Source of the DNA: an uncultured Candidatus Saccharibacteria bacterium
GTDB taxonomy: Bacteria > Patescibacteriota > Saccharimonadia > Saccharimonadales > UBA4665
DNA: 29,007 nt
Assembly: GCA_964588575.1 (NCBI GenBank)
Contig: CAZPPY010000001.1
Location: 1-29,007 of the forward strand
Reading direction: 5' to 3'
Under the pieces are notes generated by a model, which searched no databases, had not been told where the DNA came from, and worked only from the letters and a program-made list of their open reading frames with translations. Position 1 is the stretch's first letter; each line of letters opens with the position of its first letter. Below, piece after piece: positions 12,656-27,359 of the stretch. Both the position numbers and the translations under genes were made by a program.

Positions 12656-12836
12656 CTTTAGCCGCAAAGAACAATTTGCTCAGAACGAGATTATCTTATC
12701 TGTTTTGGCGCTAAAACGCAAGCTTGTCGTATGTATAAATGTGCTCGTTCTGTCACTTCAGTTGCCCGGAAAAGGCAGATCGAGCCGCATTGCAACCTAA
12801 GACAGAACCTACTTGAGCGCAACAGGTTTTGTTTCT

Positions 12837-14615
12837 TTACCTTGTTACCCAGCCGCGGTGTATCATCCAGTCCTGGACATTGCGGAAACGCTCGGCGTCG
12901 GTATTGATCTGCCCGGCCGGCAAGCCATATATAACCGCGTGCGAAATGTACAGGAATCTTGGCTGGTACAAACCGAGCGCCGGGGCGTCCTGCAACCATG
13001 CTTTCAAGAATGACTGGTACTTCAGGCTGCGCAGCGTGGGATCCAGCCTCGTCCGGGCCGCTTCGAGCGACACATCGGTCGTGGAGGACGCGTATTCGGA
13101 GAAGTTGAACCGGTGCGCAGAGCGTACATCCGCCTGCGAGCTGTCCCAATATACGAACACATCCGGGTCGACGCCAATCGATACCCCATACAACACCGCA
13201 TCGTAGGAATGCTGGGTCAGGATAGACTGGAAATCGGCTGGCGATTGGGCTGATACCTGGGCGTCCACGCCAATTGCCCGCCATTGGCTCTGCAAAGCAG
13301 CCGCGACGGCCATGTAGTCATGGCTGCTTGGCACGGCCAATGTAAAACTTAGGCGCTGGCCGTGCTTCGTTACTATGCCGTCTGCGCCGGCCTGCCAGCC
13401 CGCACTCTTGAGGAGCGCCTTCGCCCGGGCATTGTTCGTGGTAGCCTGCGCGTATTTTTTCGTATAGCCAAGCTGGCCCTTCAACAATGGCTCATCCACG
13501 GGAATCGCCATGTAGCCAAGCTGGCCCACAACCGCCGCACGGTCGCTGCTGGCGACCAACGCCTGCCGTACTTTCATGTCGCGGAACAACGGGGTAGTTG
13601 TCTTGAAGAACACGTACACCCCGGCGGTCAACGGCAGGCTGTACACCTGTGATGAGGTATCTTTGGCGATTGCGTCTGGAACGCTATCAAGCCCAGCCAT
13701 GGCGGTAAGTTCCCTGTTCTGGTACGCATGGATCATGTCGTTTTCGTCGGCAAATGCATAGATATTGAACGCGCTTAATTTCGGCTCTCCCGCCCAGTAG
13801 TGGCTGAACGGCACGAGGCTGATTTGCGCTTCGGTTGAATCGCTTACCCCGGTTACGCCGATCGAATGCCACATGAATGGACCCGACCCGACCGGGTTAT
13901 TGGTATTGAACGGCGCCGACCGCAAGTCGACAACATTGGTCGATTTCAAGACATGCTCGGGCACGATGCCATTCGTCAGGCTGTACGGGAACGAGCTGAG
14001 CGGGTTCGGCAAAGTGAATGTCACCGTCAACGCGTCCTTGGCCGCAACTTTTACTCCTTGGAAACTACCAAATAGCGGCGATTCGGCATCAGGGTCTTGA
14101 ATCGTCTGGTAGGTGAACACAACGTCAGCCGCCGTCAACGGTTTGCTGTCGTGCCAGGTCAGCCCCGGCCGCAAACGCACCGTGTACACCATGCAGCTTT
14201 TATCAGCGGACCACGACTGTGCCAAATTGCCCACCAGCTGGTCCTGGCTGTTAAATGTTAGGAGCCCCGAAAACAAAAGCCTGGCCACGCTCGTATCGAC
14301 GTCGCTGACCGCGTACAACGGGCTGGCCGTCGTGAACGAACCATTAATGCCTTCTGAATAGATTCCGCCGGGGACCGGTTGCAAGACCTGGTAGTATGGG
14401 CGCAAATTGATTATTTGCAGGCCTGCAATCCCCCCGAGCAACAATACGAGCGCGACCCACGCGAACGCGAACCGCCAGACCTGTTTCAGGTGGCTAAGGC
14501 GCTCCAGGAAATTTTGCTCGAACTGCTCGCCAGCCTCATGGCTGATGTTTTCGACTTGCGAAGCACGGCGCCGCCACAAGCGGCGGATGCGGAGTTTGAA
14601 ACGGTGTGGGCTCAT
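12837..14615 (-). CDS. ABC transporter substrate-binding protein, family 5 (OppA/DppA-like)
   Basis: WHDSKPLTAADVVFT, PVGSGPF, KVRQAL, DPDVFVYWDSSQ; basic N-terminus followed by a TM anchor. No permease genes adjacent. Confidence 0.92.
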   Translation of the reverse strand: MSPHRFKLRIRRLWRRRASQVENISHEAGEQFEQNFLERLSHLKQVWRFAFAWVALVLLLGGIAGLQIINLRPYYQVLQPVPGGIYSEGINGSFTTASPLYAVSDVDTSVARLLFSGLLTFNSQDQLVGNLAQSWSADKSCMVYTVRLRPGLTWHDSKPLTAADVVFTYQTIQDPDAESPLFGSFQGVKVAAKDALTVTFTLPNPLSSFPYSLTNGIVPEHVLKSTNVVDLRSAPFNTNNPVGSGPFMWHSIGVTGVSDSTEAQISLVPFSHYWAGEPKLSAFNIYAFADENDMIHAYQNRELTAMAGLDSVPDAIAKDTSSQVYSLPLTAGVYVFFKTTTPLFRDMKVRQALVASSDRAAVVGQLGYMAIPVDEPLLKGQLGYTKKYAQATTNNARAKALLKSAGWQAGADGIVTKHGQRLSFTLAVPSSHDYMAVAAALQSQWRAIGVDAQVSAQSPADFQSILTQHSYDAVLYGVSIGVDPDVFVYWDSSQADVRSAHRFNFSEYASSTTDVSLEAARTRLDPTLRSLKYQSFLKAWLQDAPALGLYQPRFLYISHAVIYGLPAGQINTDAERFRNVQDWMIHRGWVTR

Positions 14616-14635
14616 AGATCCCTTGAAATAACAGC

Positions 14636-14848
14636 TTACCCGAAGATTCCCAGGACAAGCGACAGCGCGAACACTACCGCTGTGATAATGGTTATTTGGA
14701 AAATCGTCTTGTCGGTACCGCGCCGGGTTGTGTTGATTTCTCCGGTGCCACCGAGCCCCGCGCCAAGGCTGGCACCGCGCGTCTGCACAAGTATAAGGAC
14801 CGTCATGAGCAGCATCGACGCAAGGGTCAGGTAGTTAAAGATCGTCAT
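14636..14848 (-). CDS. secG: Preprotein translocase subunit SecG
   Basis: Two TM helices with ILVQTRGASLGAGLGG...TRRGTDK; 70 aa. Confidence 0.92.
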   Translation of the reverse strand: MTIFNYLTLASMLLMTVLILVQTRGASLGAGLGGTGEINTTRRGTDKTIFQITIITAVVFALSLVLGIFG

Positions 14849-15203
14849 GTTCTTTCTCCTCCAAAATGGCTGTTACCAGATAGTTTACCAGCCCGATGAT
14901 AATCCCCGCAACTATTGCCGCCCAGAAACTCGTGATATGGAGCGGCGGGTAGAGCACGCTGGCGAGATAGACGACGAGGCCGTTGACTACCAGGAGGAAC
15001 AAACCAAGTGTCAGGATGATTGCCGGCAATGAGAAAATAACAAGTACCGGTTTGATTAACATGTTAAGTACCGCCAATATGAAACCGGCTCCGATAATCG
15101 CGCCGGCGCTGTTGCCGTAGCTGATGTTGCTGCTCAGGAGCGCAGCCGCAAACCAGAGACCCAGGCTGCTGCCCAGCCACCGCAAAAGGAAGCGCTTTAC
15201 CAT
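14835..15203 (-). CDS. YvlD / 4-TM 'phage holin family' membrane protein
   Basis: LNMLIKPVLVIFSLPAIILTLGLFLLVVNG family signature; overlaps secG by 14 nt. Confidence 0.88.
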   Translation of the reverse strand: MVKRFLLRWLGSSLGLWFAAALLSSNISYGNSAGAIIGAGFILAVLNMLIKPVLVIFSLPAIILTLGLFLLVVNGLVVYLASVLYPPLHITSFWAAIVAGIIIGLVNYLVTAILEEKEHDDL

Positions 15204-15239
15204 ACGTACTATTGTACTAGCACCGCGCTTGCCTGCAAA

Positions 15240-16462
15240 TCATACCAGCATGCGCGGCAGCGCGGCAGACAAAACCTTGGCGCCAGTTTCAGTTATGACC
15301 ACGTCTTCTTCGATTCGCACGCCAATGTTTTCCTCTGGAATGTAAATCCCGGGCTCAATCGTAACGACCATGTTCGCCTCCAAGGGCTGCTGGTAATCGC
15401 CGGCGTCGTGCACGTCCAGCCCTAGGAAATGCGGGGCATGCGGGTAATATTGCTTGATGGATTCTTCGCTGATAACCTTTATCAGCCCAAGCGCGCGCAG
15501 CTTTTCGCCCATGAAATACCGGAGTTGCTGTTCATAGAATGCATAGCTGGCGCCGGGCTTCAGTTGGTTGATGCCAAATTCCAAGGCTTCATTGACCGCC
15601 GCCACGATATCCCGTTGGCGCTTGGTCGCTTTGCCCTTCACGACGGTGCGCGTGATATCCGCCACATAGTGGTCAACCTCGGCACCTACATCCATGACTA
15701 TCAACTCATTTATGCCGATCGTGGCGTTGTTGTCCGTGTTATGCAACACGCAAGCCCGTTTGCCGCCCGCAACGATCGGCTGGAATGCATGGCCGGCCGC
15801 GCCGCGTTTGCGTATGCCGGCCGCGAACGCCGCTTCTAGCTGGTATTCGTGCGTGTAGCCGTCAAGCTTCGGCTGCCGCGTAGATTCCTTGATTGCAGCG
15901 AGCGTTATATCGACGGCCTTTTGGATGGCCGCGAGCTCCTCGGGCTGTTTCGTCATGCGCATGCGCACCATGTGCTGCCGCAAATCAAGCAGCTCGATAC
16001 TCCCGTTCATTTCTTGCATCCTGCTCATCAGTTCAGCCCGCGCCGGGTTGGTATACATTCCAAGAACATCGATGTATTTCGGGTTGGCAGCGACCGTGGC
16101 GGCGTGGCGGACCCGCTCAAGCCGCGAAGCCAACAGCTTCCATCCAGCTTTTTCACCCACAACGGTATCGATCCCTGATATTTGCCGCAATGCGTCAATA
16201 TCGTAGGCGCCATCGAACAAATTCTTCACGTCACCGCGGTCTCGAAGAATTATGTATTCTTTGTCCTTGTCCATGACGAGGACCGCGTCCGGTTCGTCAA
16301 TGCCGGTAAGATACCAGAAATTGCGGTCCTGGTGGAACGGATAGGCCTCATCCCCAGCCTTTTGCAACGACCCGTTAGCTGTTATCACAATCGGGGCAGA
16401 CCCGTAAACAGCTCCCTCAGCTTCCGGCGATTGCCCGCGAAAAAGCCGCTCGTAAAGCTCAT
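15240..16462 (-). CDS. pepP: Xaa-Pro aminopeptidase (M24B) with an apparent 1-bp frameshift near 16402
   Basis: Metal ligands in DVG, DITRT, HFLGLDVHD, TIEPG, RIEED. ATG 16462 (GAGGT RBS) reads MSFTSGFFAGNRRKLRELFTG; one extra G joins it to SAPIVITANG in the 16388 frame. Confidence 0.88.
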
Positions 16463-16584
16463 ATATACCTCATCACCTCTTCTAAGCTATCCAGTATAGC
16501 AAATAATGCAAGCCCGTTCCGCGGCAATACCCCGAGTACCTATGGTATTCCGCCTAGTTATCCACAGCCCGAAAAAGCCTGAGC

Positions 16585-17166
16585 CTAGTGGATGATGCTA
16601 TGCTTGGCAAATTGCAAAAGGCCGCTGTAGTGCGAAGCAAACAGCCAAATATCGACGGCGAGCAGGGCGGGGATCACCATCAAATGTTCTTCCCATTTGC
16701 CCGTCGTCACGCGCAGGTGCTTCAACGGCGGGATGCCGAATTTAATGGGAATCGGCAGCAGCCACGGCACGCCTTCTTTGGTAAAGGTGTCCATTACCAG
16801 GTGCGATACCAGCCCGACCATGAACGCGTACCATATCAATCCGATGTCAGCGTGCGGCATCAACGGCTGCAAGAAATGCAGCAACACATTCGCCAAAAAG
16901 CCGAATATCACCAACCCGATAATTGAATGACTTAGGAACCGATGGCCGCCAACGAGCACGTCGAATACTTTGCCAAATACCCTGCCAACCGGCAAGTTGC
17001 GCCATAACGGCGCGGTTGGCTGGTCGATGTCCGGCACGATGCCGCCGATTTGGTTTGCCAAAACGCCAATAAAGACCGTTGACAATGCCAATGGCTGGGC
17101 ATGCCAAGCTAACGCCGCCAGCCCAAGCGCCGTGATCGCAGCAAGATCGTGGGTCCGTGCCGTCAT
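16585..17166 (-). CDS. Metal-dependent hydrolase, YdjM family (inner membrane)
   Basis: MTARTH, PDID, HRFLSHS, SHLVMDTFTKEGVP motifs. Confidence 0.9.
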   Translation of the reverse strand: MTARTHDLAAITALGLAALAWHAQPLALSTVFIGVLANQIGGIVPDIDQPTAPLWRNLPVGRVFGKVFDVLVGGHRFLSHSIIGLVIFGFLANVLLHFLQPLMPHADIGLIWYAFMVGLVSHLVMDTFTKEGVPWLLPIPIKFGIPPLKHLRVTTGKWEEHLMVIPALLAVDIWLFASHYSGLLQFAKHSIIH

Positions 17167-17175
17167 AAGTTATAG

Positions 17176-17577
17176 TCAGGCAGCAATTTGTTCGTCGCCG
17201 AGCAGCTTGCGCGCTTTGTTCAGCACTTCCACTGCCGGTGTCTCGCCTTTGATCGTGAAGTCGTCGGCCCCGATCGCTAGCGCCCGGTCAATCGATGATT
17301 TATCGTTTAACACCGAGTAGACGATCACGGGAATATCCTTGGTTGCTGGGTTTTGCTTCAACTTTCCCAGGACGTCAAAACCGCTTAGTTTTGGGAGTAT
17401 GATGTCGAGCAGCACCAGGTCCGGCGGCGATTGCTCCACCAGCTTCAATGCTTCCTCGCCGTCTTCAGCTTCAACGACTGTATACCCGTACATCGTCATT
17501 GCATCGCGGTAAATTTGGCGGAACGGCAACTCGTCTTCTACCAAAAGTATCGTGCGCTTGGTTTTGGCTTGGTCCAT
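17176..17577 (-). CDS. Single-domain response regulator (CheY-like receiver)
   Basis: LLVEDE, LLDIILP (phospho-Asp), conserved S and K; AGGAG RBS. Confidence 0.95.
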   Translation of the reverse strand: MDQAKTKRTILLVEDELPFRQIYRDAMTMYGYTVVEAEDGEEALKLVEQSPPDLVLLDIILPKLSGFDVLGKLKQNPATKDIPVIVYSVLNDKSSIDRALAIGADDFTIKGETPAVEVLNKARKLLGDEQIAA

Positions 17578-17626
17578 ATCGCTCCTTATATCTATATTAT
17601 TACTTGCTTTAGGCGCTTGATAAACC

Positions 17627-19330
17627 TTATGGTTTCATACCTTGGAGCCGAATGCAAACGGTTGTACCACTCTTGGATGTGGTAGACACGCTAATCGATC
17701 CGTTCATCATCGAGACAAGTTGGCGCGCCAGATACACGCCGAGCCCCGTCCCGCCTTCGGCAGACGGCGCATGGGCAAGTGGGCCGTCGTGAAGCTCGGT
17801 CTCGAACAGCATCGCCACCGTCGCTTTGTCCATGCCGCCTCCTTCGTCGCTTACCCGCACCTCGACTTCATTGTCTATGGCCACCACCGACAGCGTGATC
17901 GTTCCTTTCGCCGTGTGCACGATCGCATTGTCAACAATATTGCCGATCGCCTGGATCAACTTCTGGTCGTCGCCGCGGACGAACATGATCCCTGGCGGCA
18001 ACGACGCTTTGAGAATTAAGCCTTTTTGGGCTGCCCGGTCCCGGCGCAGTTTGACGACCAGTTCGACAACCGGGCCGATTTCCACCGGCTCGTTATGCAC
18101 CGTCACGTTGCCTTTTCCCGCCAGCGCGATGTCCAGCAGGTCAGCAATCAATCTGCCCGACCGGGCCGCTAACTCTTGAATGTGCGTGACGTATTCCAAC
18201 TGCTTGTCGTTCATTGCCCCGCCGATGCCGCCGAGCAAATTGTAGGCATACCCGTTGATTTCGCCAATCGGCGTTTTTAGCTGGTGCGATATCAGCGCGA
18301 TAAAATTATCCTTCAATTGGTCGAGCTTCTTGCTTTCCGTGGCATCATCAAAGACCGTTGTGACACCAATAACCTTGTTGCTCGCTACAATCGGCGCGAC
18401 CGTCCCGACGAATGGGAAAACCGACCCATTTTTACGGCGGTAGCTATATCCTGCGACAGGCTGCGGCAAAAGCGGCGCGGCAGCGTTATCTTCCACGAAT
18501 GCCAGCATTGGGCGGTGCGGCGCCGGCACCCGTTCGCCCTTCGCGTCGAATATTGGCAAGACTTCATCATATAACCGCCCGATGACCTCAGTGCGTTTCC
18601 AGCCGGTTAACTTCTCAAAACTATCATTCGCCAGGATGATCATGCCCTGCCGGTTGACCGCCACCAGCGCGCTGCCCATGGACAGCAAAATAGCGTCGGT
18701 TTCGGCATGGCGGGCAACCAGCGCATGCATCTCTTCGGCAAGCCGCTCGCGCTGTTGGATCAATTCGCTTACCAACCCGGTAATAACGGTGATAGCCAGC
18801 AGGCTCGCGCACGTCGTGACGAGCGTCGGGAAAAAGTTTTGTGCCTGAACATGTAGCACCGCGGCAGCTTCGTGCCGGTCGATAACAACCCGGAAATGGT
18901 CGAGCAGCGACAAAAGCAGGAACAACACAACGGCCGTCGCGCCCACCAGGTAGACTTCCAATTTCGCGAAAAAGGCTGAAGCCATGATGATGGGGATGGC
19001 ATAGAGCAGCGCGATTTGCGTTTCTATCCCTGCGTTGACATAGAATGCCGCGGAAACGATCACGATATCGAGCACAAGCTGGCCGACGACCAGCGAGGCG
19101 TACACTTCACGGCGTGCCGTGTTGATGTATGTCCCCACCAAGAAGCCCGCGTTGACAAGCAGGATAGCCCCCACGATCAATAGATCCGCGCCGACTTGCG
19201 ACGTGTAACCACTACTAGCCAAGAGAGTGATAACACTTGGAACCGCTACGGCCAAAACATAGAACCAACGGACGGCAACGTACCAACGTGCTCGCTTTCG
19301 TATATCGGCAATTGAAGTGACACCCTGCAT
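17627..19330 (-). CDS. Membrane-bound PAS-domain sensor histidine kinase
   Basis: About 5-6 N-terminal TM helices, PAS domain (NDSFEKLTGW), H-box SHQLKTP, N-box GNIVDNA, GGTGLG. Confidence 0.94.
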   Translation of the reverse strand: MQGVTSIADIRKRARWYVAVRWFYVLAVAVPSVITLLASSGYTSQVGADLLIVGAILLVNAGFLVGTYINTARREVYASLVVGQLVLDIVIVSAAFYVNAGIETQIALLYAIPIIMASAFFAKLEVYLVGATAVVLFLLLSLLDHFRVVIDRHEAAAVLHVQAQNFFPTLVTTCASLLAITVITGLVSELIQQRERLAEEMHALVARHAETDAILLSMGSALVAVNRQGMIILANDSFEKLTGWKRTEVIGRLYDEVLPIFDAKGERVPAPHRPMLAFVEDNAAAPLLPQPVAGYSYRRKNGSVFPFVGTVAPIVASNKVIGVTTVFDDATESKKLDQLKDNFIALISHQLKTPIGEINGYAYNLLGGIGGAMNDKQLEYVTHIQELAARSGRLIADLLDIALAGKGNVTVHNEPVEIGPVVELVVKLRRDRAAQKGLILKASLPPGIMFVRGDDQKLIQAIGNIVDNAIVHTAKGTITLSVVAIDNEVEVRVSDEGGGMDKATVAMLFETELHDGPLAHAPSAEGGTGLGVYLARQLVSMMNGSISVSTTSKSGTTVCIRLQGMKP

Positions 19331-19395
19331 GACGGAAATTCAACGTTTTATAGGGCTCAGTATACCGCTTATGCCCAAAATGCCAATGGGAATAC

Positions 19396-21108
19396 TTACG
19401 GCTGGGTTCCGGCGGATGCATCCTCGCGCTTGTATGGGCGCAAATATTGGCGGATAATCGCAGCTTTTCTGGCGCCAACTACTTTTTCCAGCTCGAAGTC
19501 GCGGGCCTGCACGACGCCGCGCGCGCTGCCGAACGTGCGTATAAGCTTCTTGCGCGTTGTCGGCCCAATCGTTGGTATATCATCGAGCGTGCTGGCGCTG
19601 ACGCGCTTCACTTTCAATACCGAGTGATAGCTTACGGCAAAACGGTGCGACTCATCCCGGATGCGCTGTAGCAGCTTTACCAAGTTTGTGCTATGCGGCA
19701 AACTTACCAATATAAAATCATCGCTTTCTGTCATATATCCGCCAAGCCGATGTAGTTCGCTCATATTTAGCATCACGTTACTCCCACCCATCATCCCCGG
19801 CCCGGTCGGTGATTCAGCGAATAGCAGGGCACCACTCCCTACAGCTGTCATCCCCGGCCTGACCGGGGATCCAGTGGTATTTTGCATCGCCGCTGCTGAT
19901 TCGTTATTTGATTGGATTCCCATTTTCACGGGAATGACGTGGCTTGCTTGATTCTTTTTAATAACAATTTGCTCCTCCCTTTTCGCCAGGCCGATAAACG
20001 GGATCTCTTTCAAGGCTGAGCCTTGAAATTCGGCAGCTTCGTCACGCGCCTTGATTGCCGCGTCCAGCTGGCCTTTCCCGCCATCGATCAATACCAAGCC
20101 GGGCTTGCCCCAACCCTTCACGTGTTTTTCGGCGAAGCGCCGCTTGATCGTCTCGTTCATGTTATAGAAATCGTTGTTATGGTCCTTTTTGGTCTTGAAC
20201 TTGCGGTACTCGCGTTTGTCGCTGACGCCGTTCGTGAAGACGACCATGCTCGCGACTACGTCGGTACCCTGCATATGCGAGATATCATAACCCTCGATCC
20301 TTCTCGGCACTTGCTCAATACTTAACAGGTTAACTAATTCATTCAGGGCATGATCTTTGCTAATGTCTTGGAATTCTTTGTCACTGAATATTACTTGACG
20401 TGTTAAGTTTCTAAGCGAGAAGAGTTGGTTACGCAACTTGGCTGCGCGCTCAAAGTCTTGGGCGGTGGCGGCTTGCTTCATTTCTTTCTCTATTTCCTTT
20501 TCGACGCTTTTGCGCTTCCCCTCTATGACCGCTATAAGCTTGCGCAGGTTCGCCCGGTAATCTTCCAGGCTGGTCTTGCCCTCTTCCAATCCTGGGTCCA
20601 GGCCGAGGTGATAGAACAGCGTGGCGCGTTTCTGCCCTAGAGTCCGGCGCGTGGCATAGGGGAATATACGGCGCAAACTCTTGAGGGCTTGCCGCACGCT
20701 CAGCGTGCTCAAGTACGGGCCGAAGTATTTGGCGCCATCATCAAGCGGGCGGCGCGTTGTCGTTACCGTCGGGTAGTCGCTGTTGTAATCGATCCGGATA
20801 TAGCTCAGCGACTTGTCGTCGCGCAGTAGGATGTTATACCGCGGCATGTAGCGGCGGATCATTTCCGCTTCTAGAAATAACGCCTCAATCTCGCTGTCGA
20901 CTACCATCCAATCAGTATCAACAATTTCTTCGACGAGCGCGTCGGTTTTCGGATCGCGCACCCGCGATTTCTGGAAATACTGCCGCACGCGGTTGCGCAA
21001 AACCGCCGCCTTGCCAACATAAATAATCTCGCCGGCAGCGTTCTTGTGGAAATACACTCCCGGCTCCTTCGGCAGGTCTTTTAATTTGTCGCTCAGTTGC
21101 TTGTTCAC
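19396..21108 (-). CDS. uvrC: Excinuclease ABC subunit C, carrying an in-frame palindromic insertion
   Basis: GIY-YIG (GVY...IYVGKA), UVR motif DFERAAKLRNQ, EGYDISH, DGGKGQ, RDESHRFA, HhH. Start set at GTG 21108, 7 nt below TACAAT. Confidence 0.96.
   Translation of the reverse strand: MNKQLSDKLKDLPKEPGVYFHKNAAGEIIYVGKAAVLRNRVRQYFQKSRVRDPKTDALVEEIVDTDWMVVDSEIEALFLEAEMIRRYMPRYNILLRDDKSLSYIRIDYNSDYPTVTTTRRPLDDGAKYFGPYLSTLSVRQALKSLRRIFPYATRRTLGQKRATLFYHLGLDPGLEEGKTSLEDYRANLRKLIAVIEGKRKSVEKEIEKEMKQAATAQDFERAAKLRNQLFSLRNLTRQVIFSDKEFQDISKDHALNELVNLLSIEQVPRRIEGYDISHMQGTDVVASMVVFTNGVSDKREYRKFKTKKDHNNDFYNMNETIKRRFAEKHVKGWGKPGLVLIDGGKGQLDAAIKARDEAAEFQGSALKEIPFIGLAKREEQIVIKKNQASHVIPVKMGIQSNNESAAAMQNTTGSPVRPGMTAVGSGALLFAESPTGPGMMGGSNVMLNMSELHRLGGYMTESDDFILVSLPHSTNLVKLLQRIRDESHRFAVSYHSVLKVKRVSASTLDDIPTIGPTTRKKLIRTFGSARGVVQARDFELEKVVGARKAAIIRQYLRPYKREDASAGTQP
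19847..19938. mobile_element. RPE/MITE-like palindromic element inside uvrC
   Basis: Terminal inverted repeats GTCATCCCC...GGGAATGAC with an internal hairpin at each end. Translates in uvrC as VIPVKMGIQ...GSPVRPGMT, the VIPxxxGI pattern typical of this repeat class. Confidence 0.82.
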
Positions 21109-21113
21109 AACTA

Positions 21114-21965
21114 CTATTGTACCGCCACCGCATGGCGGCCACAGGCTGTCAGTTCTTGAACTTGGCAGGATTTGCATACGACAAATTGTTTGTTGCAAGA
21201 TAAATCGGCGCAATTGATTTGCTCGCTTGTTTTGGCGCCGCAATGAACGCATATGCCAACGTCTTTTGAGTTGCCGCTAAACGCTAGCTTCATGCGCTTG
21301 TCGAAGACATAGCATTTGCCTTCCCAATGCCCGTCGTCACCGTAGGCTTCGCCGTACTTCACGATGCCGCCGTCGAGATGATAGACATCCTGAAAGCCTT
21401 TGTGTTTCATGTACGCGCTCAGATATTCACAACGAATATCGCCCGTGCAGTACGTCATTACCGGCTGGTCTTTGGGTAATTTCTCAAGTGTCTTTTTGAT
21501 ATCTTTGAATGTTTTGATTTTCGGCTTTATGGCACCTTTGAAAGCGCCGATTTCTGACTCGTAATCATTGCGGGCGTCGAGGATTGGCACGCCGGGATGC
21601 TCGTCAATAAATGTATGCCAGGCTTCAGGGCGCAGCGGCGTGCCTTTGTCGAACACGTCAAAATCTTCCCCAGGTGCCAGCGTCACGAGTTCTTTGCGTA
21701 CTTTGACGCTGAGTTTCGGAAAATCGTCGCGTGCGCCATCACTCCACTTATATTCAATACCTTTGAATTCGGGCGTGCGATTCATTTCGGAAATGTACGT
21801 TTTGACGTCGTCGAGTTCGCCGCCGAGCGTGCCATTGATGCCATGCTTCGAGATAATAACCCGCCCTTTGAGATGCAGGCGCTCGCACAATTCACGCTGC
21901 CAGCGCATGGTCATCCCCGGATCGGGAAGCGGCACGAACTTGTAATATAAAATGATCTTTTGCAT
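21114..21965 (-). CDS. trhO: Rhodanese-related tRNA U34 hydroxylase (YceA/TrhO family)
   Basis: LYYKF, GINGTLGG, LDARNDYE, YCTGDIRCE, GGIVKY, YVFDKR and a C-terminal Cys cluster. Confidence 0.92.
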   Translation of the reverse strand: MQKIILYYKFVPLPDPGMTMRWQRELCERLHLKGRVIISKHGINGTLGGELDDVKTYISEMNRTPEFKGIEYKWSDGARDDFPKLSVKVRKELVTLAPGEDFDVFDKGTPLRPEAWHTFIDEHPGVPILDARNDYESEIGAFKGAIKPKIKTFKDIKKTLEKLPKDQPVMTYCTGDIRCEYLSAYMKHKGFQDVYHLDGGIVKYGEAYGDDGHWEGKCYVFDKRMKLAFSGNSKDVGICVHCGAKTSEQINCADLSCNKQFVVCKSCQVQELTACGRHAVAVQ

Positions 21966-21968
21966 GGA

Positions 21969-23567
21969 TTAGAAAACCAGGCGCGACAACCAGATGCCAA
22001 CGAGCGCCACGAACAACACGCCCAATACAACTGCCGCGGTTACGTTTGCACGGACGAGCATTTGGCGGGCGGAATCGCGGGCAGCTTGTGGGTCGCGAGT
22101 TGGCAGCGTGATGCTAGCCTGCCGGGCTGGCTGGTGCCCTGTCACTCCGGCTAAGGTATCTTCGGCGACCGGCTCGGGCAAGCCGCTTGCAGTATGCCCC
22201 GTCACGTCCGGCGCGCGGTTGCGCAATTGGCGGTCAAGTTCGTGGTCGCGGGCATGCGAATCCATCTCGGCAGCCAAAACCGACAAGAAATTGCCGCCGC
22301 GCACAAACTCGTTGACGATCCGCCGTGCCGCACGTTCGGTAATCAAGCCGTTTTCGTAGATTTCGCGGACATTCGTGTCGGCGACTTTGATTGCTTCGCT
22401 CGTCTCTAATACGTCTTTGAGCGCCATTTTTTCCGCGTCGATATGGACCGGCTTTGCCGTCTCTTGGGCGGTCCCAGCACGCCGTGCCGTGCCGGCCTGC
22501 TCAAGCTTGGCGGCTTGCGCCCGCTCGGCATTTTGCCGTACCTTCGAATCAGCTTCGGCCGCGCGCTGCTGGCGCTTGGCAGCTTCGTTCGCGTATGCCA
22601 TTTTGCGGATCTTATCTTCGCTGAACGCAAGGGTCTCGTAGACACCCTTCATCTCGCTCTCAAGTTTTTCTTTGACGGGCTTGAACCGCTTCTCGGCCTT
22701 CATCCGCCCGCTGCGCCGGCCAAGCAAATTGCCGATAACACCGCCGACCAGCAAGCCAATTAAAAACGCACGTGATTCAGCGCCTTCGTCGCGCGGCGGG
22801 ACAACATTCGGGTTGGCGGCATACCGGGTCCAAAGCGGCACGTTTGGGTTGGGACCGGGAGCGGCATTGTAGGCCATAGGCTGCACGTTCGGTCCTGGCG
22901 GATGCGCCTGACCGCCGCCGGCATTGAATACTTGTGCCACGCCAAACGGCGGCTGGGAATCTGAATCCTCGTATTGCATCCCGCCCGCCGCGCCATTGGC
23001 ATGTGCCGATTCCTGCGCGGCACCGCCAAGCCCCCGTTTGTTGACAGTATCCTCGTACGCTTGGCTTGCCGCGTCGCCAACGCTCATCGTGGCATCGGTT
23101 TCAAGGTGCTGCCTGGCAGCGTCAAGGAATTCGTTGGCAGCAGTGCTCGCCGCGGTCTCCGCCACGTCGTCCAGCCCCGCTTGTTCTGCAGCGATAGTCG
23201 CCCGACGGTTCGTGATGCCGTCAAGCGCGACTTCGTGCGCCTCTTCCGGGCTCAACGTCCCCAGCTCCGCGATTACCTCAGCATCCTCCGGCGTCAACTC
23301 GTCGCTTGGCGGCGCGGTCTCATGTGCAGGCTTCTTTGCGTCTTCTGCGGGTTCCTCAGGCGATTCAGGCACAGCGTGCTTCTCCCGCGAGCGCTCCCAC
23401 ACCAAAGCACCCAATGCCTGCTGCTCGTTCGGTGCCGGTTGTTGTTCTTTGCTTGTCTTGGCTTCGGCATGGGGTTTCACCGGAGCCGATGCGTGCTCGG
23501 CTTCGCTGTCGTCGTCATCTGTATCTCGGCGGGTTTCGGGGGAAATGGCCATGTACGTTCTATCCAT
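21969..23567 (-). CDS. Hypothetical membrane protein (acidic low-complexity N-terminus, central GxxxG helix, coiled coil, C-terminal TM)
   Basis: Long ORF; AFLIGLLVGGVIGNLLGRR; terminal hydrophobic helix. Start set at ATG 23567, 7 nt below CATAAT; alternative 23552. Confidence 0.82.
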   Translation of the reverse strand: MDRTYMAISPETRRDTDDDDSEAEHASAPVKPHAEAKTSKEQQPAPNEQQALGALVWERSREKHAVPESPEEPAEDAKKPAHETAPPSDELTPEDAEVIAELGTLSPEEAHEVALDGITNRRATIAAEQAGLDDVAETAASTAANEFLDAARQHLETDATMSVGDAASQAYEDTVNKRGLGGAAQESAHANGAAGGMQYEDSDSQPPFGVAQVFNAGGGQAHPPGPNVQPMAYNAAPGPNPNVPLWTRYAANPNVVPPRDEGAESRAFLIGLLVGGVIGNLLGRRSGRMKAEKRFKPVKEKLESEMKGVYETLAFSEDKIRKMAYANEAAKRQQRAAEADSKVRQNAERAQAAKLEQAGTARRAGTAQETAKPVHIDAEKMALKDVLETSEAIKVADTNVREIYENGLITERAARRIVNEFVRGGNFLSVLAAEMDSHARDHELDRQLRNRAPDVTGHTASGLPEPVAEDTLAGVTGHQPARQASITLPTRDPQAARDSARQMLVRANVTAAVVLGVLFVALVGIWLSRLVF

Positions 23568-23649
23568 TAGCAAAATTATGCTTGTCTTTCTAACTTGGCT
23601 ATTATAAGATAGAGAGCGAATATTATCAATTAACCGGAGACGGCGAAAA

Positions 23650-23703
23650 ATGTACAGTGTCCTTTCAACCCAGGCTTTGCCGTGTGCTCCGGTGCTTGCA
23701 TAA
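23650..23703 (+). other. Candidate 17-aa leader peptide (MYSVLSTQALPCAPVLA)
   Basis: ATG...TAA inside the roughly 180-nt leader of the ABC pair; no homology evidence. Confidence 0.35.
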
Positions 23704-23761
23704 GCTTATCTCGATAGGCGGTGCACCAGCCACCCCAGACCAACAACGTACATCAACGTAA

Positions 23762-23784
23762 GCAGCCGCGTTAGGAGAGGCTGC
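23762..23784 (+). promoter_or_regulatory. Hairpin enclosing the SD sequence of ABC transporter 1
   Basis: GCAGCC-gcgttAGGAGA-GGCTGC ends 3 nt before the ATG at 23788. Confidence 0.5.
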
Positions 23785-23787
23785 GCC

Positions 23788-25560
23788 ATGAACACCACCA
23801 AACAGACCCTAAAATTCTACTGGCACCATGCCAAGCAGTACCCATTGTGGATCACGGTACTTATATTCAGCGTGCCCGCGACCGTGGCGGCTGGCTCGTT
23901 CATCCCGCCCCTCATCATCGCGAACATTTTGAACCGACTAAGCATGCATGCATACAATCCTGCCGACATCGCGGGCAGTTTCGGGCACGACTTGGTACTG
24001 TACGCGATCCTTGTTTTGGCGAGTGGCATCATAGGTTGGCGGATTGTTGACAGTGCCGTTTGGTACTTGGAAGGAAATGTAGAACGCGATATTGCCCAGC
24101 GCGTCTTCAAGCACCTGCTCGCGCAAAGCCCGACATTCCACGCCAACAGGTTCGGCGGCTCATTGGTATCGCACACCAACAAACTCATGGGCAGTTATAT
24201 TCGTTTTGCTGACACAACCATCTTCATGGTCATACCGCTTGTATGCGGGCTCGTCTTTGCCGGGATAATATTGACGCAACATGCCCCGGTATATGCAGCT
24301 ATCCTGATCGGTTTCGCGGTTATTTACATGGCTTCATCCGTGTTTGTGACCGCGCCTACACGACGCATCGCGGCCCAACAAGCGGGCGCCGAAAGCAAGC
24401 AGACCGGCAGCCTGGCCGATGCCGTGACCAATATTATGGCAATCAAGGCTTTTGCCAGCAGTACCATGGAAGAAGTTCGCTTCGCGAAAGCTGCGGACTA
24501 CACACGCAACCATTTGATGCGCCTGATGCGCGCCAGCCAAATGCAGCAAGCATACTTCAGCCTGATGGCCAATGGTATCCAGGCGCTGTCATTGACGATC
24601 GCTGTCATCGGCGCGACCCGTTTCCATGCTGATTTAGCCAGTGTCTTCCTGATCGCCAGCTACACCGGCACGATCGCGAGCAACTTGTTCCAGTTCAGCA
24701 ACAACGCATTGCGCAATTACAACCGTTCGTTCGGCGACGCCGAAGACATGGTCAAAGTGCTTGCAATCAAGCCGGAGATCCAAGACCCAGCCGTGCCAGA
24801 AGAAGCCCATATCACGCGGGGCGAGATCGAGTTCAAGGGTGTCACATTCGCGCACGAAGAGTCAAACGGCGCCTTGTTCGCGGGCTTGGACATCAAAATC
24901 AAAGCCGGCGAAAAAGTCGGGCTGGTCGGGCACTCCGGCTCTGGCAAAACGACGTTGACCAGGCTGCTGCTCCGCTTCAATGATATCCAGTCCGGCACGA
25001 TCGCGATTGACGGGCAAAACATTGCCTCTATCACCCAGGATGCCTTGCGGCAATCCATCGCGTACGTGCCGCAAGAACCTATCCTTTTCCACCGTTCGCT
25101 GCGCGAAAACATCGCGTACGGCAACCCGGGCGCGTCACAACAAGAAGTCGAAGGCGTGGCGAAACTCGCGCATGCCCAAGAATTCATTGCTGCCTTGCCG
25201 GACGGATACGAAACGCTGGTCGGCGAACGCGGCGTGAAGTTGTCTGGCGGACAGCGCCAGCGCATAGCTATTGCCCGTGCCATGATCAAGAACGCACCGA
25301 TACTGGTGCTTGACGAAGCAACTGCCGCGTTGGATTCAGAGAGCGAAGCGCTCATACAGGACGCGCTGTGGACATTGATGGAACAGCGCACGGCGATCGT
25401 AGTCGCGCACCGATTGAGCACGATCCAGAAAATGGACCGCATCATCGTCATGGATGATGGCAAAATCATCGAGCAAGGCTCGCACAAAGAGCTCTTGGCG
25501 ATGAACGGCCAGTATGCCCAACTGTGGGCGCGCCAATCGGGCGGATTTATCGAGGAATAG
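23788..25560 (+). CDS. ABC exporter, fused TMD-NBD (MdlB/MsbA-like), copy 1
   Basis: 6 TM helices, GHSGSGKT, LSGGQRQR, ILVLDEAT, AHRL. Confidence 0.95.
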   Translation: MNTTKQTLKFYWHHAKQYPLWITVLIFSVPATVAAGSFIPPLIIANILNRLSMHAYNPADIAGSFGHDLVLYAILVLASGIIGWRIVDSAVWYLEGNVERDIAQRVFKHLLAQSPTFHANRFGGSLVSHTNKLMGSYIRFADTTIFMVIPLVCGLVFAGIILTQHAPVYAAILIGFAVIYMASSVFVTAPTRRIAAQQAGAESKQTGSLADAVTNIMAIKAFASSTMEEVRFAKAADYTRNHLMRLMRASQMQQAYFSLMANGIQALSLTIAVIGATRFHADLASVFLIASYTGTIASNLFQFSNNALRNYNRSFGDAEDMVKVLAIKPEIQDPAVPEEAHITRGEIEFKGVTFAHEESNGALFAGLDIKIKAGEKVGLVGHSGSGKTTLTRLLLRFNDIQSGTIAIDGQNIASITQDALRQSIAYVPQEPILFHRSLRENIAYGNPGASQQEVEGVAKLAHAQEFIAALPDGYETLVGERGVKLSGGQRQRIAIARAMIKNAPILVLDEATAALDSESEALIQDALWTLMEQRTAIVVAHRLSTIQKMDRIIVMDDGKIIEQGSHKELLAMNGQYAQLWARQSGGFIEE

Positions 25561-25576
25561 AGAGCACCATATCAGC

Positions 25577-27352
25577 ATGACAAAGAGAACTGCCCACACT
25601 TCCGTACACGCCAAGGACACGCTCCGGCTGTATACACGCGCTACTCTCAAACATCGCAAAGAGTCGTTTCTAGCCCTTGCGCTGCCGGTCAGTACTGTCA
25701 TATTGGGGGTTTTCGTACCGTTTTACGCCAGCAAGCTGCTGGCAGACATTGTCACGCATGCCAGCAAGCAACGGCCGGATTTTGTTTTGTTCGCCAGCCT
25801 GGCTGCTATTGGTTTCCTGCTCAACACATATGGCATCCGTATATGTATGCGGCTGCAAGCCCGTGTGATGAACGAGCTGCATTCCAGTATGTTTGCCAGG
25901 CTACTCGAACGGAGTGTCGGTTTCTACAACAACCAGGTCGGGGGCAAGCTCGTCTCGGATGCGCTCGATTTCATCAATAGCTACGGGCAGCTTTTCAACA
26001 CTGCCTTCATTACGGCATTGGCGTTTGCGCTCACCACGAGTATTGGCCTTGTAATGGTATTCGTAAGCAACTGGCAGATTGGCCTATGTATTAGCATATT
26101 GCTGGCAGGGCTGGCGTATTGGTCCATCGTAGAAACCGCGAAACGCTCGGGCCTGCGCAGCCAACGGCTGGTCATTAGCAAGCGGCTGACAGCGCATCTG
26201 GCAGATAATATTGTCAATGCCGTGACCGTGAAGATGTTTGCCCGGGAAGCTAGCGAAATAGCAGAAAACAGCCGGTTAAACGCGCAGCTTGCCGATGCCC
26301 GGCAAAAGGACTGGCAACGCAGTGTCACGAGCGAAAGCGAACGCATGGGCGTGCTATTGCTCATGCAGGCCTGCCTGCTGTTGGTGCTCATCTGGCAGGT
26401 CGCTCACAATCCGCAAACCCTCGCTGCCGGTATCTTTGCCTTCACGTACACCATCACGCTCATTAACCGCTTCTTCTCCATCAACACCATGGTACGGCAG
26501 ATAGAGGAAAGCTTCCTACAAGCCTCGCCCATGACCGAGCTGCTCGGCGAGCCAATCGAGATCACCGACGCGCCGGATTGCCAGCCGCTTGTAGTCCGTC
26601 ACGGCGAAATCACCTGCCATAACGTGAAATTCCGCTACGCGGATACCTCGGGAGAAGAATATATCTTCAATGGCTTGGACTTGCATATCAAACCAGGAGA
26701 AAAAATAGGCTTGGTCGGCCATAGCGGCGGGGGCAAATCTACCCTGACACGCCTGCTCTTGCGGTTTGACGACACTTCAGATGGATCAATCACTATCGAC
26801 GGCCAGGACATCCGCGACGTTACGCAGGCCAGCCTGCGCGAGCAGATTTCATATGTCCCACAAGAACCGCTCTTGTTCCATCGCACCATACTGGAGAACA
26901 TCGCCTATGGGAATGAAGGCGTTTCGCGGGAAGAGGTGGAAGCAGCTGCCAAGCTCGCCTACGCCCACGACTTTATCTCCAAGCTCCCTCAGCGCTACGA
27001 CACCGTCGTCGGCGAACGAGGCGTGAAGTTAAGCGGCGGCCAACGCCAGCGCATCGCTATAGCGCGTGCCATCTTGAAAAACGCACCCATTTTAGTACTT
27101 GATGAAGCGACCAGCGCGCTGGACAGCGAAAGCGAGAAAGTCATCCAGGATGCCCTCTGGGAACTGATGGATGGCCGCACCGCTGTGGTCGTCGCCCATC
27201 GCCTGAGCACCATCCAGAAGATGGATCGTATCATCGTATTGGATGAAGGAAAAATAGTTGAAGAAGGCAGCCACAGGGAGCTCATAACGAAACAGGATGG
27301 CATGTACGCCAAGCTGTGGGCTCGCCAATCAGGCGGGTTTATCGAAGAATAG
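25577..27352 (+). CDS. ABC exporter, fused TMD-NBD, copy 2
   Basis: GHSGGGKS, LSGGQRQR, ILVLDEAT, AHRL. Start set at ATG 25577 to avoid overlapping copy 1. Confidence 0.95.
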   Translation: MTKRTAHTSVHAKDTLRLYTRATLKHRKESFLALALPVSTVILGVFVPFYASKLLADIVTHASKQRPDFVLFASLAAIGFLLNTYGIRICMRLQARVMNELHSSMFARLLERSVGFYNNQVGGKLVSDALDFINSYGQLFNTAFITALAFALTTSIGLVMVFVSNWQIGLCISILLAGLAYWSIVETAKRSGLRSQRLVISKRLTAHLADNIVNAVTVKMFAREASEIAENSRLNAQLADARQKDWQRSVTSESERMGVLLLMQACLLLVLIWQVAHNPQTLAAGIFAFTYTITLINRFFSINTMVRQIEESFLQASPMTELLGEPIEITDAPDCQPLVVRHGEITCHNVKFRYADTSGEEYIFNGLDLHIKPGEKIGLVGHSGGGKSTLTRLLLRFDDTSDGSITIDGQDIRDVTQASLREQISYVPQEPLLFHRTILENIAYGNEGVSREEVEAAAKLAYAHDFISKLPQRYDTVVGERGVKLSGGQRQRIAIARAILKNAPILVLDEATSALDSESEKVIQDALWELMDGRTAVVVAHRLSTIQKMDRIIVLDEGKIVEEGSHRELITKQDGMYAKLWARQSGGFIEE

Positions 27353-27359
27353 TGCCTGT

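What the first reader, a model, noticed from the sequence alone, without database searches (positions are those of the whole stretch)
19790..19938. In-frame palindromic (RPE-like) element and a decayed second copy inside uvrC
Seen: between GLAKREEQIV and the helix before RDESHRFA, UvrC has about 50 low-complexity extra residues. These are encoded by a 92-bp element with terminal inverted repeats (19847-19938) and a degenerate copy of its left end (19791-19817, 22/27 identical to 19848-19874, first 12 nt exact). The frame is open and the catalytic motifs are intact. Established: Rickettsia palindromic elements insert into coding genes and add peptide segments. Inference: the same process operates in a CPR genome, with two successive hits at one surface loop of the RNase H-like nuclease domain. 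This is the clearest unusual feature in the window.
Basis: partly seen in the sequence, partly recalled or inferred. Interest (0 to 1): 0.75.

Follow-up and report, generated by a model that had tools for sequence, protein, structure and literature searches.

The report
Hairpin repeat element inside uvrC
A DNA-repair gene (uvrC) of a groundwater Saccharibacteria genome carries, in frame, three copies of a small hairpin repeat known from Neisseria (dRS3/NTS) and Rickettsia (RPE); the kind of event is known, but it is new for this bacterial group, and the same spot in uvrC is hit again and again in related lineages.

Summary
UvrC (window 19396-21117, minus strand) has a 165-nt, 55-codon in-frame insert (19783-19947) that 28 of 30 orthologues from related genomes lack.

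**What the insert is.** It holds three copies of a roughly 30-nt hairpin, CGTCATTCCCG-N6/7-CGGGAATCCAGT. The third copy is decayed.

**What family it belongs to.** The hairpin is a CGTC-tagged REP, the same motif as Neisseria dRS3/NTS (the "Ssn-related motif") and, by the literature, Rickettsia RPE-6.
- It occurs 15 times in this genome; the 12 copies outside uvrC lie in no long open frame.
- It occurs 54 times in one congener, G001. There it flanks small GIY-YIG (Ssn-like) nuclease genes and sits in frame inside lepA, pheT (twice), alaS and argS.

**Effect on the protein.** AlphaFold2 models the insert as a disordered loop in an otherwise confident RNase H-like domain. The residues conserved across all 31 aligned UvrC proteins are intact.

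**Beyond this genome.** Many other Saccharimonadales UvrC proteins carry inserts at this same codon position. Three more were confirmed as doublets in the DNA. The inserts are scattered over the UvrC tree, with at least 17 gains or losses.

**Verdict.** This is a new member of a known kind (in-frame REP/RPE insertion). The mobilising enzyme is inferred, not shown. Interest is moderate.

The parts
19396..21117 (-). uvrC open frame (GIY-YIG, UVR, RNase H-like and HhH parts). The exact start codon was not determined; the gene call on record starts at 21057, which cuts off the conserved LPKEPG.
   Evidence: Pfam PF08459, PF02151, PF27096. 61-82% identical to 30 orthologues. Matches solved UvrC 2nrt at E 2.6e-43.
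19783..19947 (-). In-frame insert of 165 nt, 55 codons (residues 391-445 of the 573-residue frame).
   Evidence: Absent from 28 of 30 orthologues. Coordinates. pLDDT below 50 for residues 397-442.
19909..19940 (-). Hairpin unit 1: the left arm of the doublet in gene orientation, short-loop type, read as VIPVKMGIQ.
   Evidence: R1 covariance model 37.0 bits, E 2.6e-6. DNA hairpin -4.6 kcal/mol with an 8-bp stem.
19878..19908 (-). Spacer of the doublet, with a small internal GC stem. It is conserved within the 92-bp family.
   Evidence: Alignment A3 with six doublets of the congener G001, 75% mean column identity. 71-77% identical to the spacers of two other uvrC-borne doublets.
19845..19877 (+). 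Hairpin unit 2: the right arm of the doublet, long-loop type, read as TGSPVRPGMT on the coding strand.
   Evidence: R1 44.7 bits, E 2e-8. DNA hairpin -10.1 kcal/mol, z -3.2.
19788..19820 (+). Hairpin unit 3: a decayed copy in the same orientation as unit 2, 57 nt away. The canonical stem is no longer the predicted fold.
   Evidence: R1 32.7 bits, E 3.7e-5. 22/27 identity to unit 2. Fold.

Best explanation
The extra 55 residues of UvrC are encoded by a small cluster of a repeated DNA hairpin.

**The unit.** It has an unpaired CGTC head, an 8-bp stem that starts AT, a short loop and a CCAG tail. This is the CGTC-tagged REP, the same motif as Neisseria dRS3/NTS, also called the Ssn-related motif.

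**The doublet.** Two units in inverted orientation, with a conserved 31-37-nt spacer, form a 92-bp doublet. The doublet belongs to a family of non-coding repeats that is dispersed in this genome and is much more abundant in one congener. A third, decayed unit lies beside it.

**How it got there (inferred).** The doublet arrived in uvrC either by transposition or by import of an already occupied allele through recombination. It survived because three things hold: its length keeps the frame, the units lack stop codons in most frames, and the site is a lineage-specific surface loop of the RNase H-like nuclease domain. The insert is then translated as a disordered loop and UvrC stays functional.

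**What moves it (inferred).** The most likely mobilising or processing enzyme is the small GIY-YIG single-strand DNA nuclease of the Ssn type. The congener encodes it in unit-gene-unit cassettes. None was found in this assembly, so the copies here may be orphans or served in trans.

**Shown:** the anatomy, the family, the copy census, the empty sites, and recurrence at the same uvrC site in other lineages.

**Inferred:** translation, tolerance by the protein, and the mobilising enzyme.

The confidence given is for the identity and origin of the insert. For the Ssn link alone I would give about 0.4.
For: **The unit family**
- 15 aligned copies form 96.7% standard pairs. 15 cells carry compensatory changes, against a mean of 3.6 in shuffles, with 0 of 500 shuffles reaching the observed value.
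- Census: 15 units in this genome, 54 in congener G001, 3-4 in G028 and G039. 31 of the 40 relatives searched have none; three more have one weak match each, E 0.007-0.065.
- The 12 copies in this genome outside uvrC lie in no long open frame.

**Identity with known repeats**
- The pattern fits dRS3, ATTCCC(N8)GGGAAT.
- It fits NTS, CGTCATTCCCGCGMAVGCGGGAATCYRG. G001 has exact NTS matches. Two units of this genome are within 2 mismatches.
- The exact motif occurs in Neisseria lactamica and N. dentiae and in many phyla.
- The literature equates CGTC-1 REPs with dRS3 and RPE-6, and reports REPs inside repair genes, uvrC among them.

**Enzyme link**
- G001 has two unit-GIY-YIG-unit cassettes.
- Three of the 4 genomes with 3 or more units have an Ssn-like gene, against 3 of 37 others.

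**In-frame insertion as a process**
- G001 doublets sit in lepA, pheT (twice), alaS and argS. This genome's orthologues show clean gaps of 25-33 residues at those places.
- The doublet family shares its length and its spacer.

**Tolerance by the protein**
- The insert has pLDDT 31-36, within a domain at 80-95.
- T. maritima UvrC has a one-residue turn where this protein has 81 residues.
- 5 of 6 frames of the short unit and 4 of 6 of the long unit are open. The predicted peptides VIPAKAGIQ and TGFPVKPGMT match the insert.

**Recurrence at this site**
- R1 doublets occur at the same uvrC site in three more metagenomic genes.
- Inserts are scattered over the UvrC tree: 31-36 changes, at least 17 of them forced by well-supported branches.
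Against: - No Ssn-like gene and no Y1 transposase was found in this assembly. The assembly is 95.7% complete in 162 contigs, and it is a mixed bin.
- No target-site duplication or shared target motif was seen at 22 doublets, so the insertion chemistry is unknown.
- Ssn is shown in the literature only to bind and cut single-stranded DNA. It has not been shown to move the repeats.
- The published degenerate SRM pattern is no commoner here than in shuffled sequence (11 hits against 4-12), and only unit 2 fits it.
- Neither translation of the insert nor activity of this UvrC was tested.
- The second uvrC of the bin (contig C11) has a 26-27-residue insert at the same site with no significant match to the unit.
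Confidence: 0.8

Rival explanations
1. The doublet is a REPIN in the strict sense, mobilised by a REP-associated tyrosine transposase (RAYT, of the IS200/IS605 Y1 type) and not by an Ssn-type nuclease.
For: Inverted REP doublets with a spacer and no target duplication are the REPIN anatomy. G001, the unit-rich congener, has one Y1_Tnp match.
Against: - No PF01797 match in this genome.
- The G001 match lies at a contig end, and no unit was found on that contig.
- Seven other relatives have Y1 genes but no such units.
- The unit carries a CGTC head, not the GTAG head linked to RAYTs. The literature found no dedicated transposase for CGTC REPs.
Confidence: 0.1
2. The element is not active in this genome. 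The insert is an old, vertically inherited relic, possibly refreshed by gene conversion from other copies or moved between lineages as part of a uvrC allele by natural transformation. The scatter on the tree would then reflect many losses and allele exchanges, not many insertions.
For: - No nuclease or transposase partner in the assembly.
- The window's doublet is most like those in two other uvrC genes, 76-80% overall and 71-77% in the spacer.
- All clear cases share orientation and frame.
- Inserts go with a K in place of Q two residues upstream in about 10 of 17 independent contrasts, and almost never the other way.
Against: - The uvrC doublet of P0011 is closer to a pheT doublet of G001 (84%) than to the other uvrC doublets.
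- A second hairpin type (stem ATCTCTCGA...TCGAGAT) occupies the same site in another clade.
- Empty sites all have one length, including in outgroups, so each loss would have had to be exact.
- The protein sample was gathered by shared words with the query, which biases it toward look-alike inserts.
Confidence: 0.3
3. The hairpins in uvrC are kept by selection for a function of their own. They might serve as cleavage or binding sites for an Ssn-type nuclease that lower recombination of incoming DNA at uvrC, or as an mRNA structure that tunes UvrC synthesis.
For: - Units in four uvrC genes keep 34-45 bits, with compensating stem changes (CCCCGG/CCGGGG, CCCCGA/TCGGGG, CCCGGA/TCCGGG), while the genes differ by about 20-25%.
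- NTS repeats lower the integration of transforming DNA in Neisseria.
- Di Nocera et al. noted that repair genes are over-represented among REP-bearing genes.
Against: Unit 3 has lost its hairpin, and many lineages carry decayed inserts or none. Stem covariation is also a property of the family at large, so separate insertions of different family members explain it equally well. No functional test was run.
Confidence: 0.12
4. The segment is not a mobile repeat at all. It would be a low-complexity loop grown by local duplication or slippage, or an assembly chimera.
For: Units 2 and 3 are a 57-nt-spaced direct repeat. The loop region varies in length among UvrC proteins.
Against: Fifteen units on 11 contigs of this genome and 54 in a congener share sequence and structure. 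The exact motif occurs across phyla. Independent contigs from three runs carry the insert without differences.
Confidence: 0.02

Closest known systems
CGTC-tagged REPs (family CGTC-1) of Di Nocera, De Gregorio and Rocco 2013 (PMC3733652)
   Same: - CGTC head, 8-bp stem starting AT, 4-5-nt loop, CCA tail, mostly inverted dimers.
- Some copies lie in frame inside genes, notably repair genes.
- R. conorii uvrC (RC0864) and Xanthobacter uvrC (Xaut_2344) are listed with such inserts.
- REP-encoded peptides such as VIPAKAGI, SFPRKRES and DSRFRGND match the ones read here.
   Different: - The host is a Saccharimonadales (CPR) genome. That survey found these repeats in 5 phyla, mostly Alphaproteobacteria.
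- One uvrC codon position is occupied in many lineages here. That paper found that REPs in genes of the same function mostly lie at different sites.
Neisseria dRS3 / NTS repeats and the Ssn-related motif with SsnA GIY-YIG ssDNA nuclease (Nat Commun 2025, PMC11893778)
   Same: - The unit fits ATTCCC(N8)GGGAAT and the NTS flanks CGTCAT...CYRG.
- Congener G001 has exact NTS matches and unit-GIY-YIG-unit cassettes like NTS-ssnA-NTS.
   Different: - No ssn homologue was found in this assembly.
- Units here mostly carry a longer loop (GGCTTGACC type) and depart from NTS by 2-4 bases.
- In Neisseria the repeats cluster between genes. In-frame coding copies are not what that paper describes.
- Cleavage was not tested here.
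Rickettsia palindromic elements (RPE), as cited in PMC3733652
   Same: A palindromic repeat inserted in frame into housekeeping genes of a small-genome, host-dependent bacterium, adding a peptide segment. The literature equates RPE-6 and RPE-4 with CGTC-1 and CGTC-4.
   Different: No RPE sequence was compared directly here. The classic RPE-1 is longer. The insert here is a doublet plus a third unit.
REPIN-RAYT systems (Bertels and Rainey 2011, PMC3116915)
   Same: Two inverted REPs with a spacer act as the repeated unit. There is no coding capacity and no target duplication.
   Different: The head is CGTC, not GTAG, and no flanked RAYT was found.

Membership tests
CGTC-tagged REP (CGTC-1) | Unpaired CGTC (or TGTC/CCTC) motif at one end | tested here: met
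   The consensus of 15 units is nCGTCATTCCCG...; T, C and T of GTCAT are invariant and G and A are at least 90% conserved. Unit 2 has TGTC and unit 3 has CATC.
CGTC-tagged REP (CGTC-1) | Stem of 8-9 bp that starts with complementary A-T residues, loop of 4-5 nt, CCA tail | tested here: met
   8 pairs, 96.7% of cells paired; the first two pairs are A-T and T-A in 14 of 15 units. Predicted folds give 8-bp stems with 4- and 5-nt loops. The tail is CCAG.
CGTC-tagged REP (CGTC-1) | Units mostly arranged as inverted dimers | tested here: met
   2 dimers in this genome and about 18 in the G001 loci fetched, heads pointing outward.
NTS / Ssn-related motif | Match to CGTCATTCCCGCGMAVGCGGGAATCYRG with at most 1 mismatch (the paper's search rule) | tested here: not met
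   In this genome the best units have 2 mismatches (C14, C69). uvrC unit 1 has 4. Congener G001 has exact matches. The units here are therefore relatives of NTS, not canonical NTS.
NTS / Ssn-related motif | Fit to the degenerate SRM pattern and enrichment over shuffled genome | tested here: inconclusive
   Unit 2 fits. There are 11 hits in the genome against 4-12 in ten shuffles, so the pattern has no power here. The covariance model does: the 15 units score E 6e-9 to 4e-5, and the only other matches, at E 0.45 and 0.60, are opposite-strand partial hits on two of them.
NTS / Ssn-related motif | Spatial association with a small single-domain GIY-YIG (ssnA-like) gene flanked by the repeats | tested here: inconclusive
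   Met in congener G001: L170 units at 1448-1474 and 1783-1809 around a 97-residue GIY-YIG gene, and the same layout in L177. Not found in this genome with PF01541 or with the G001 protein.
NTS / Ssn-related motif | Site-specific cleavage of the single-stranded repeat by the Ssn protein | not testable with these tools
   Needs the purified protein and oligonucleotides.
Rickettsia palindromic elements | In-frame insertion in conserved protein genes, with orthologues lacking the segment | tested here: met
   uvrC here. lepA, pheT (twice), alaS and argS in G001 against this genome's orthologues.
Rickettsia palindromic elements | Sequence homology to a named RPE family | not tested
   No Rickettsia sequence was compared. 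The link rests on PMC3733652 (CGTC-1 = RPE-6) and on matching REP-encoded peptides in its supplement.
REPIN-RAYT | A RAYT (Y1 transposase) gene flanked by the same REPs, and a GTAG head | tested here: not met
   No PF01797 match in this genome. One match at a contig end in G001, on a contig where no unit was found. The head is CGTC.
Classical MITE | Target-site duplication flanking terminal inverted repeats | tested here: not met
   No duplication at 22 doublets.

The most novel reading that the evidence does not exclude
One codon position in a surface loop of UvrC may be a true landing site for NTS/SRM-type hairpin doublets across Saccharimonadales. It would be hit independently several times, or the occupied allele would pass between lineages by natural transformation. 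The hairpins would be kept intact inside the coding sequence because they do something there, for instance marking uvrC for an Ssn-type single-strand nuclease. That would tie a widespread repeat and nuclease system to a DNA-repair gene in bacteria that depend on DNA uptake.
Probability: 0.2. Interest if true: 0.75.

Novelty: new member of a known kind. Interest (0 to 1): 0.55.

Why it matters
- **New host group.** The dRS3/NTS/CGTC-REP repeat system, and in-frame insertion of the Rickettsia kind, are here found in a Saccharimonadales (CPR) genus. The full-text library searched returned no paper describing REP, REPIN or Ssn-type repeats in this group.
- **An old puzzle made testable.** Di Nocera et al. 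(2013) asked why REPs turn up in nucleotide-excision and recombination genes. The same UvrC position is filled in many lineages and empty in their close relatives. That gives a natural series for asking whether insertion is targeted, whether loss is exact, and whether the hairpins are under selection.
- **Annotation.** Extra low-complexity loops in CPR housekeeping proteins can be repeat-derived. Such repeats may also break assemblies: the congener richest in them lacks an assembled uvrC.

Tried and rejected
- **Rfam.** No family matches 19300-20500 even at E 1.
- **Published SRM pattern.** It is not enriched over shuffles in this genome.
- **My first loose regular expression.** It gave 14 hits against 8.6 expected by chance, so I replaced it with a covariance model.
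- **Units 2 and 3 as part of a longer 57-nt tandem duplication.** The flanks are no more alike than shuffled sequence, with 4659 of 5000 shuffles scoring as well.
- **The shorter insert of the second uvrC (C11) as a decayed copy.** No significant match to the unit, best score 2.6-4.8 bits. Homology is neither shown nor excluded.
- **Contig C1 as a mis-binned piece of congener G001.** Its tetranucleotide profile is closer to G001. But G001 has its own collinear region at about 73% identity for window 1-9000, so this is rejected.
- **A shared target motif.** The native GTCAT in the V-I codons upstream resembles the unit's head, but the five coding insertion sites of G001 show no such motif. Not supported.
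- **Ssn-like genes next to random NTS copies in other phyla.** Only 1 of 80 loci had one within 8 kb. This is uninformative, because those loci were picked by the repeat and not by the gene.
- **NCBIfam.** It has no model that names the G001 GIY-YIG proteins.
Full report
**The observation.**
- uvrC lies on the minus strand (open frame 19396-21252; the part homologous to orthologues is 19396-21117).
- In gene orientation the region reads as follows: a hairpin unit with head CGTCAT (19940-19909), a spacer, an inverted unit (19877-19845), 24 nt, and a second inverted but degraded unit (19820-19788).
- UvrC genes were fetched from 30 of the 36 related genomes that gave a match, plus a second copy in the same bin. 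Aligned to them, this protein has 55 extra residues between IVIKKNQ and SNVMLN.
- Twenty-eight orthologues have no residue there. Two have 8-10 extra residues, and the second copy has 26-27. The insert is window 19783-19947, 165 nt.
- Error-free Logan contigs from three runs of one groundwater study cover the insert. X1 covers all of it and both junctions; X2 and X3 span the 19783 junction and most of the insert. It is not an assembly chimera. No variant without the insert was seen, but contigs cannot show absence.

**A repeat family, not a chance palindrome.**
- BLAST and pattern searches of the whole assembly (1.08 Mb, 162 contigs) found the same roughly 30-nt hairpin on ten other contigs.
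- Fifteen copies align with consensus nCGTCATTCCCGnCnTGAnCGGGAATCCAGT.
- The 8-bp stem is paired in 96.7% of cells. 15 cells carry changes on both sides, against a mean of 3.6 in shuffles; 0 of 500 shuffles reach this, and slid controls drop to 62% paired or less.
- A covariance model built from these copies finds exactly these 15 in the genome at E below 1e-4, and nothing else below E 0.4.
- The 12 copies outside uvrC lie in no long open frame. Two are just upstream of likely gene starts.
- Among 40 related genomes, one congener (G001) has 54 units. G028 has 4 and G039 has 3. Thirty-one have none, including the four other congeners; three more have one weak match each.
- In G001 most units come as inverted pairs with their heads outward.
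- One size class of 91-93 nt, to which the uvrC element belongs, also shares its spacer; mean column identity is 75% over the whole element.
- No target-site duplication is visible at 22 doublets.

**What the unit is.**
- The hits span Proteobacteria (Neisseria lactamica and N. dentiae among them), Dehalococcoidia, Planctomycetes, Parcubacteria, Saccharibacteria and a Nanoarchaeota bin.
- The motif fits the Neisseria dRS3 definition ATTCCC(N8)GGGAAT (PMC3898611). It also fits the longer NTS, CGTCATTCCCGCGMAVGCGGGAATCYRG, including head and tail (PMC11893778).
- That paper shows that NTS is bound and cut, as single-stranded DNA, by the small GIY-YIG nuclease SsnA. It shows that ssnA homologues are often flanked by the repeat, and that the pair is widespread. 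It remarks that NTS-ssnA-NTS looks like an insertion sequence.
- Independently, Di Nocera et al. 2013 (PMC3733652) defined CGTC-tagged REPs: an 8-9-bp stem starting AT, a 4-5-nt loop, a CCA tail, mostly as dimers. They equated CGTC-1 with dRS3 and with R. conorii RPE-6.
- They also list REPs inside genes, many of them replication and repair genes. Examples are a CGTC-1 unit in R. conorii uvrC and a CGTC-3 dimer in Xanthobacter uvrC. They note that in many species such genes are the only REP-bearing coding sequences.
- That is also the case here: uvrC is the only coding copy in this assembly.
- The REP-encoded peptides in their table (VIPAKAGI, SFPRKRES, DSRFRGND) are what the consensus unit gives in its open frames. 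The uvrC insert reads VIPVKMGIQ...TGSPVRPGMT.
- By the NTS paper's own search rule (at most 1 mismatch), the units of this genome are relatives and not canonical NTS. The best have 2 mismatches and uvrC unit 1 has 4. G001 has exact matches.

**The enzyme link.**
- G001 encodes three small GIY-YIG proteins.
- Two of them, 65% identical to each other, are each bracketed by a unit on either side with heads outward. One cassette lies between queA and tgt.
- One of these proteins is 60% identical to a protein beside an NTS in a Methylotenera bin, which points to horizontal movement of the cassette.
- Of the four genomes with three or more units, three have an Ssn-like gene, against 3 of 37 others. 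Fisher p is 0.007, but relatives are not independent and the sample is small.
- In this genome neither PF01541 nor the G001 protein finds anything beyond the two uvrC genes, and there is no Y1 transposase.
- The copies here are therefore orphans, or the partner gene is unassembled.

**In-frame insertion is a process in this genus.**
- In G001, doublets lie inside long open frames of lepA, pheT (two sites), alaS and argS.
- This genome's orthologues align on both sides with clean gaps of 25-33 residues.
- Different reading frames of the unit are used at different sites.
- The short-loop unit has stops in only one of six frames, and the long-loop unit in two. Frame-preserving copies in tolerant loops can therefore survive in essential genes.

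**Effect on UvrC.**
- In an AlphaFold2 model built from a 31-sequence alignment, the RNase H-like domain scores pLDDT 80-95. Residues 397-442 score 31-36 and have no secondary structure. They lie between strand 383-387 and helix 452-457.
- The N-terminal part is poorly modelled with this shallow alignment, and I draw nothing from it.
- Against solved UvrC of T. maritima (2nrt), the match breaks exactly here. The solved protein has one residue where this one has 81: 55 from the insert and about 26 from a lineage-specific extension.
- All columns that are invariant across the 31 proteins are kept.
- That the protein works, and that the insert is translated, are inferences.

**The same site in other lineages.**
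- A protein search with residues 340-500 returned mostly UvrC proteins that their sources assign to Saccharimonadales.
- Of the 120 best hits, about 45 have the uninserted length. The rest carry 5-80 extra residues at the same position.
- Many read as translated units in the same orientation and frame, for example IKKPASVIPAKAGIQSKAESPKAMQNQTGSRIKSGMT.
- DNA was obtained for six of these genes. Three of them (L201, L202, L203) have a doublet at this site scoring 34-44 bits per unit.
- One (L199) has a different hairpin, with stem ATCTCTCGA...TCGAGAT. One (L204) has a short insert with no hairpin. One (L200) is an empty relative of L199.
- On a tree of 144 UvrC proteins with the insert columns removed, presence of an insert needs 31-36 changes. 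At least 17 of them are forced by well-supported branches. This holds with FastTree and with IQ-TREE.
- Filled and empty genes are often nearest neighbours, though the closest pair examined still differs by 17% in DNA.
- The window's doublet is most like those of two other uvrC genes (80% and 76%). The doublet of P0011 is most like a pheT doublet of G001 (84%).
- Together with the second hairpin type, this argues for more than one origin at this site, or for gene conversion from other copies.
- Inserts go with K in place of Q two residues upstream in about 10 of 17 independent contrasts and almost never the reverse (median p 0.004). That fits co-transfer of linked sequence or a target preference.
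- The sample was gathered by shared words with the query, so it over-represents look-alike inserts. Among species representatives the insert is rare: 1 of 30, plus two short ones.

**What remains open.**
- Whether the third unit is an older arm, a local duplication or a second hit.
- What moves the doublets, and with what target rule.
- Whether the scatter on the tree is due to gains, exact losses or allele exchange.
- Whether the hairpins in uvrC are under selection.

**Novelty.** The kind of event is known (REP/RPE in frame, including in uvrC), and the repeat and its nuclease partner are known. Three things are new: the host group, the set of housekeeping genes hit in one CPR genus, and repeated occupancy of one UvrC codon position. 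I file it as a new member of a known kind, of moderate interest.

Noticed in passing
window 10801-28850 against contig C11 of the same assembly (L042 holds C11 7000-10500): The bin holds two collinear versions of the same ~18-kb region, rhodanese-uvrC-histidine kinase and beyond, at 66-79% DNA identity. It therefore mixes two related populations. Which contigs belong to which was not resolved.
   Followed up: partly
L179 2776-2843; L182 1006-1097 and 2054-2144; L184 1072-1150; L193 1070-1149 (congener G001): Hairpin doublets lie in frame inside lepA, pheT (two sites), alaS and argS. This genome's orthologues have clean gaps of 25-33 residues at those places.
   Followed up: yes
L170 1448-1809 and L177 1448-1807 (congener G001): Unit-gene-unit cassettes encode 87-97-residue GIY-YIG proteins. 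One lies between queA and tgt. This is the same layout as NTS-ssnA-NTS in Neisseria.
   Followed up: partly
L043-L122 (scan of one genome per species): The exact head-stem-tail motif occurs in at least 120 stretches from very distant groups, including Dehalococcoidia, Planctomycetes, Parcubacteria and a Nanoarchaeota bin.
   Followed up: no
L066 6147-6416 (Methylotenera bin): A GIY-YIG protein 60% identical to the G001 Ssn-like protein lies 4 nt from an NTS-type unit. That identity is high for such distant hosts and suggests horizontal transfer of the cassette.
   Followed up: no
L199 about 2150-2260 (uvrC of P0018) and relatives P0024, P0027, P0028, P0015: A second kind of insert sits at the same uvrC position, with a different stem (ATCTCTCGA...TCGAGAT) and peptides such as VIPTEVEG...DLSTDARDD. 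The model built here does not detect it.
   Followed up: partly
UvrC residue 388 of the 573-residue frame (window about 19954-19956) and the same column in 144 relatives: Genes with an insert mostly read IKK just before it, while empty genes mostly read IQK or IHK. The association holds across independent contrasts. The cause is unknown: linked transfer, target preference or sampling bias.
   Followed up: partly
contig C109 of this assembly, bases 2-163: A lepA fragment is 100% identical over 54 residues to lepA of congener G001, while the main lepA (C79) is 68% identical over the compared stretch, the insert gap counted. This is another sign of mixed populations in the bin.
   Followed up: no
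window 21057-21117: The gene call on record for uvrC (553 residues) starts at a GTG inside the conserved LPKEPGVYF motif. Orthologues start about 17-20 residues earlier, so the start is probably one of the GTG codons near 21108.
   Followed up: no
congener G001, contig C18 ending near 15.9 kb: G001 has a region collinear with window 1-8944. Nothing corresponds to window 9001-29000, uvrC included. The repeat-richest genome lacks an assembled uvrC, possibly because repeats broke the assembly there.
   Followed up: no
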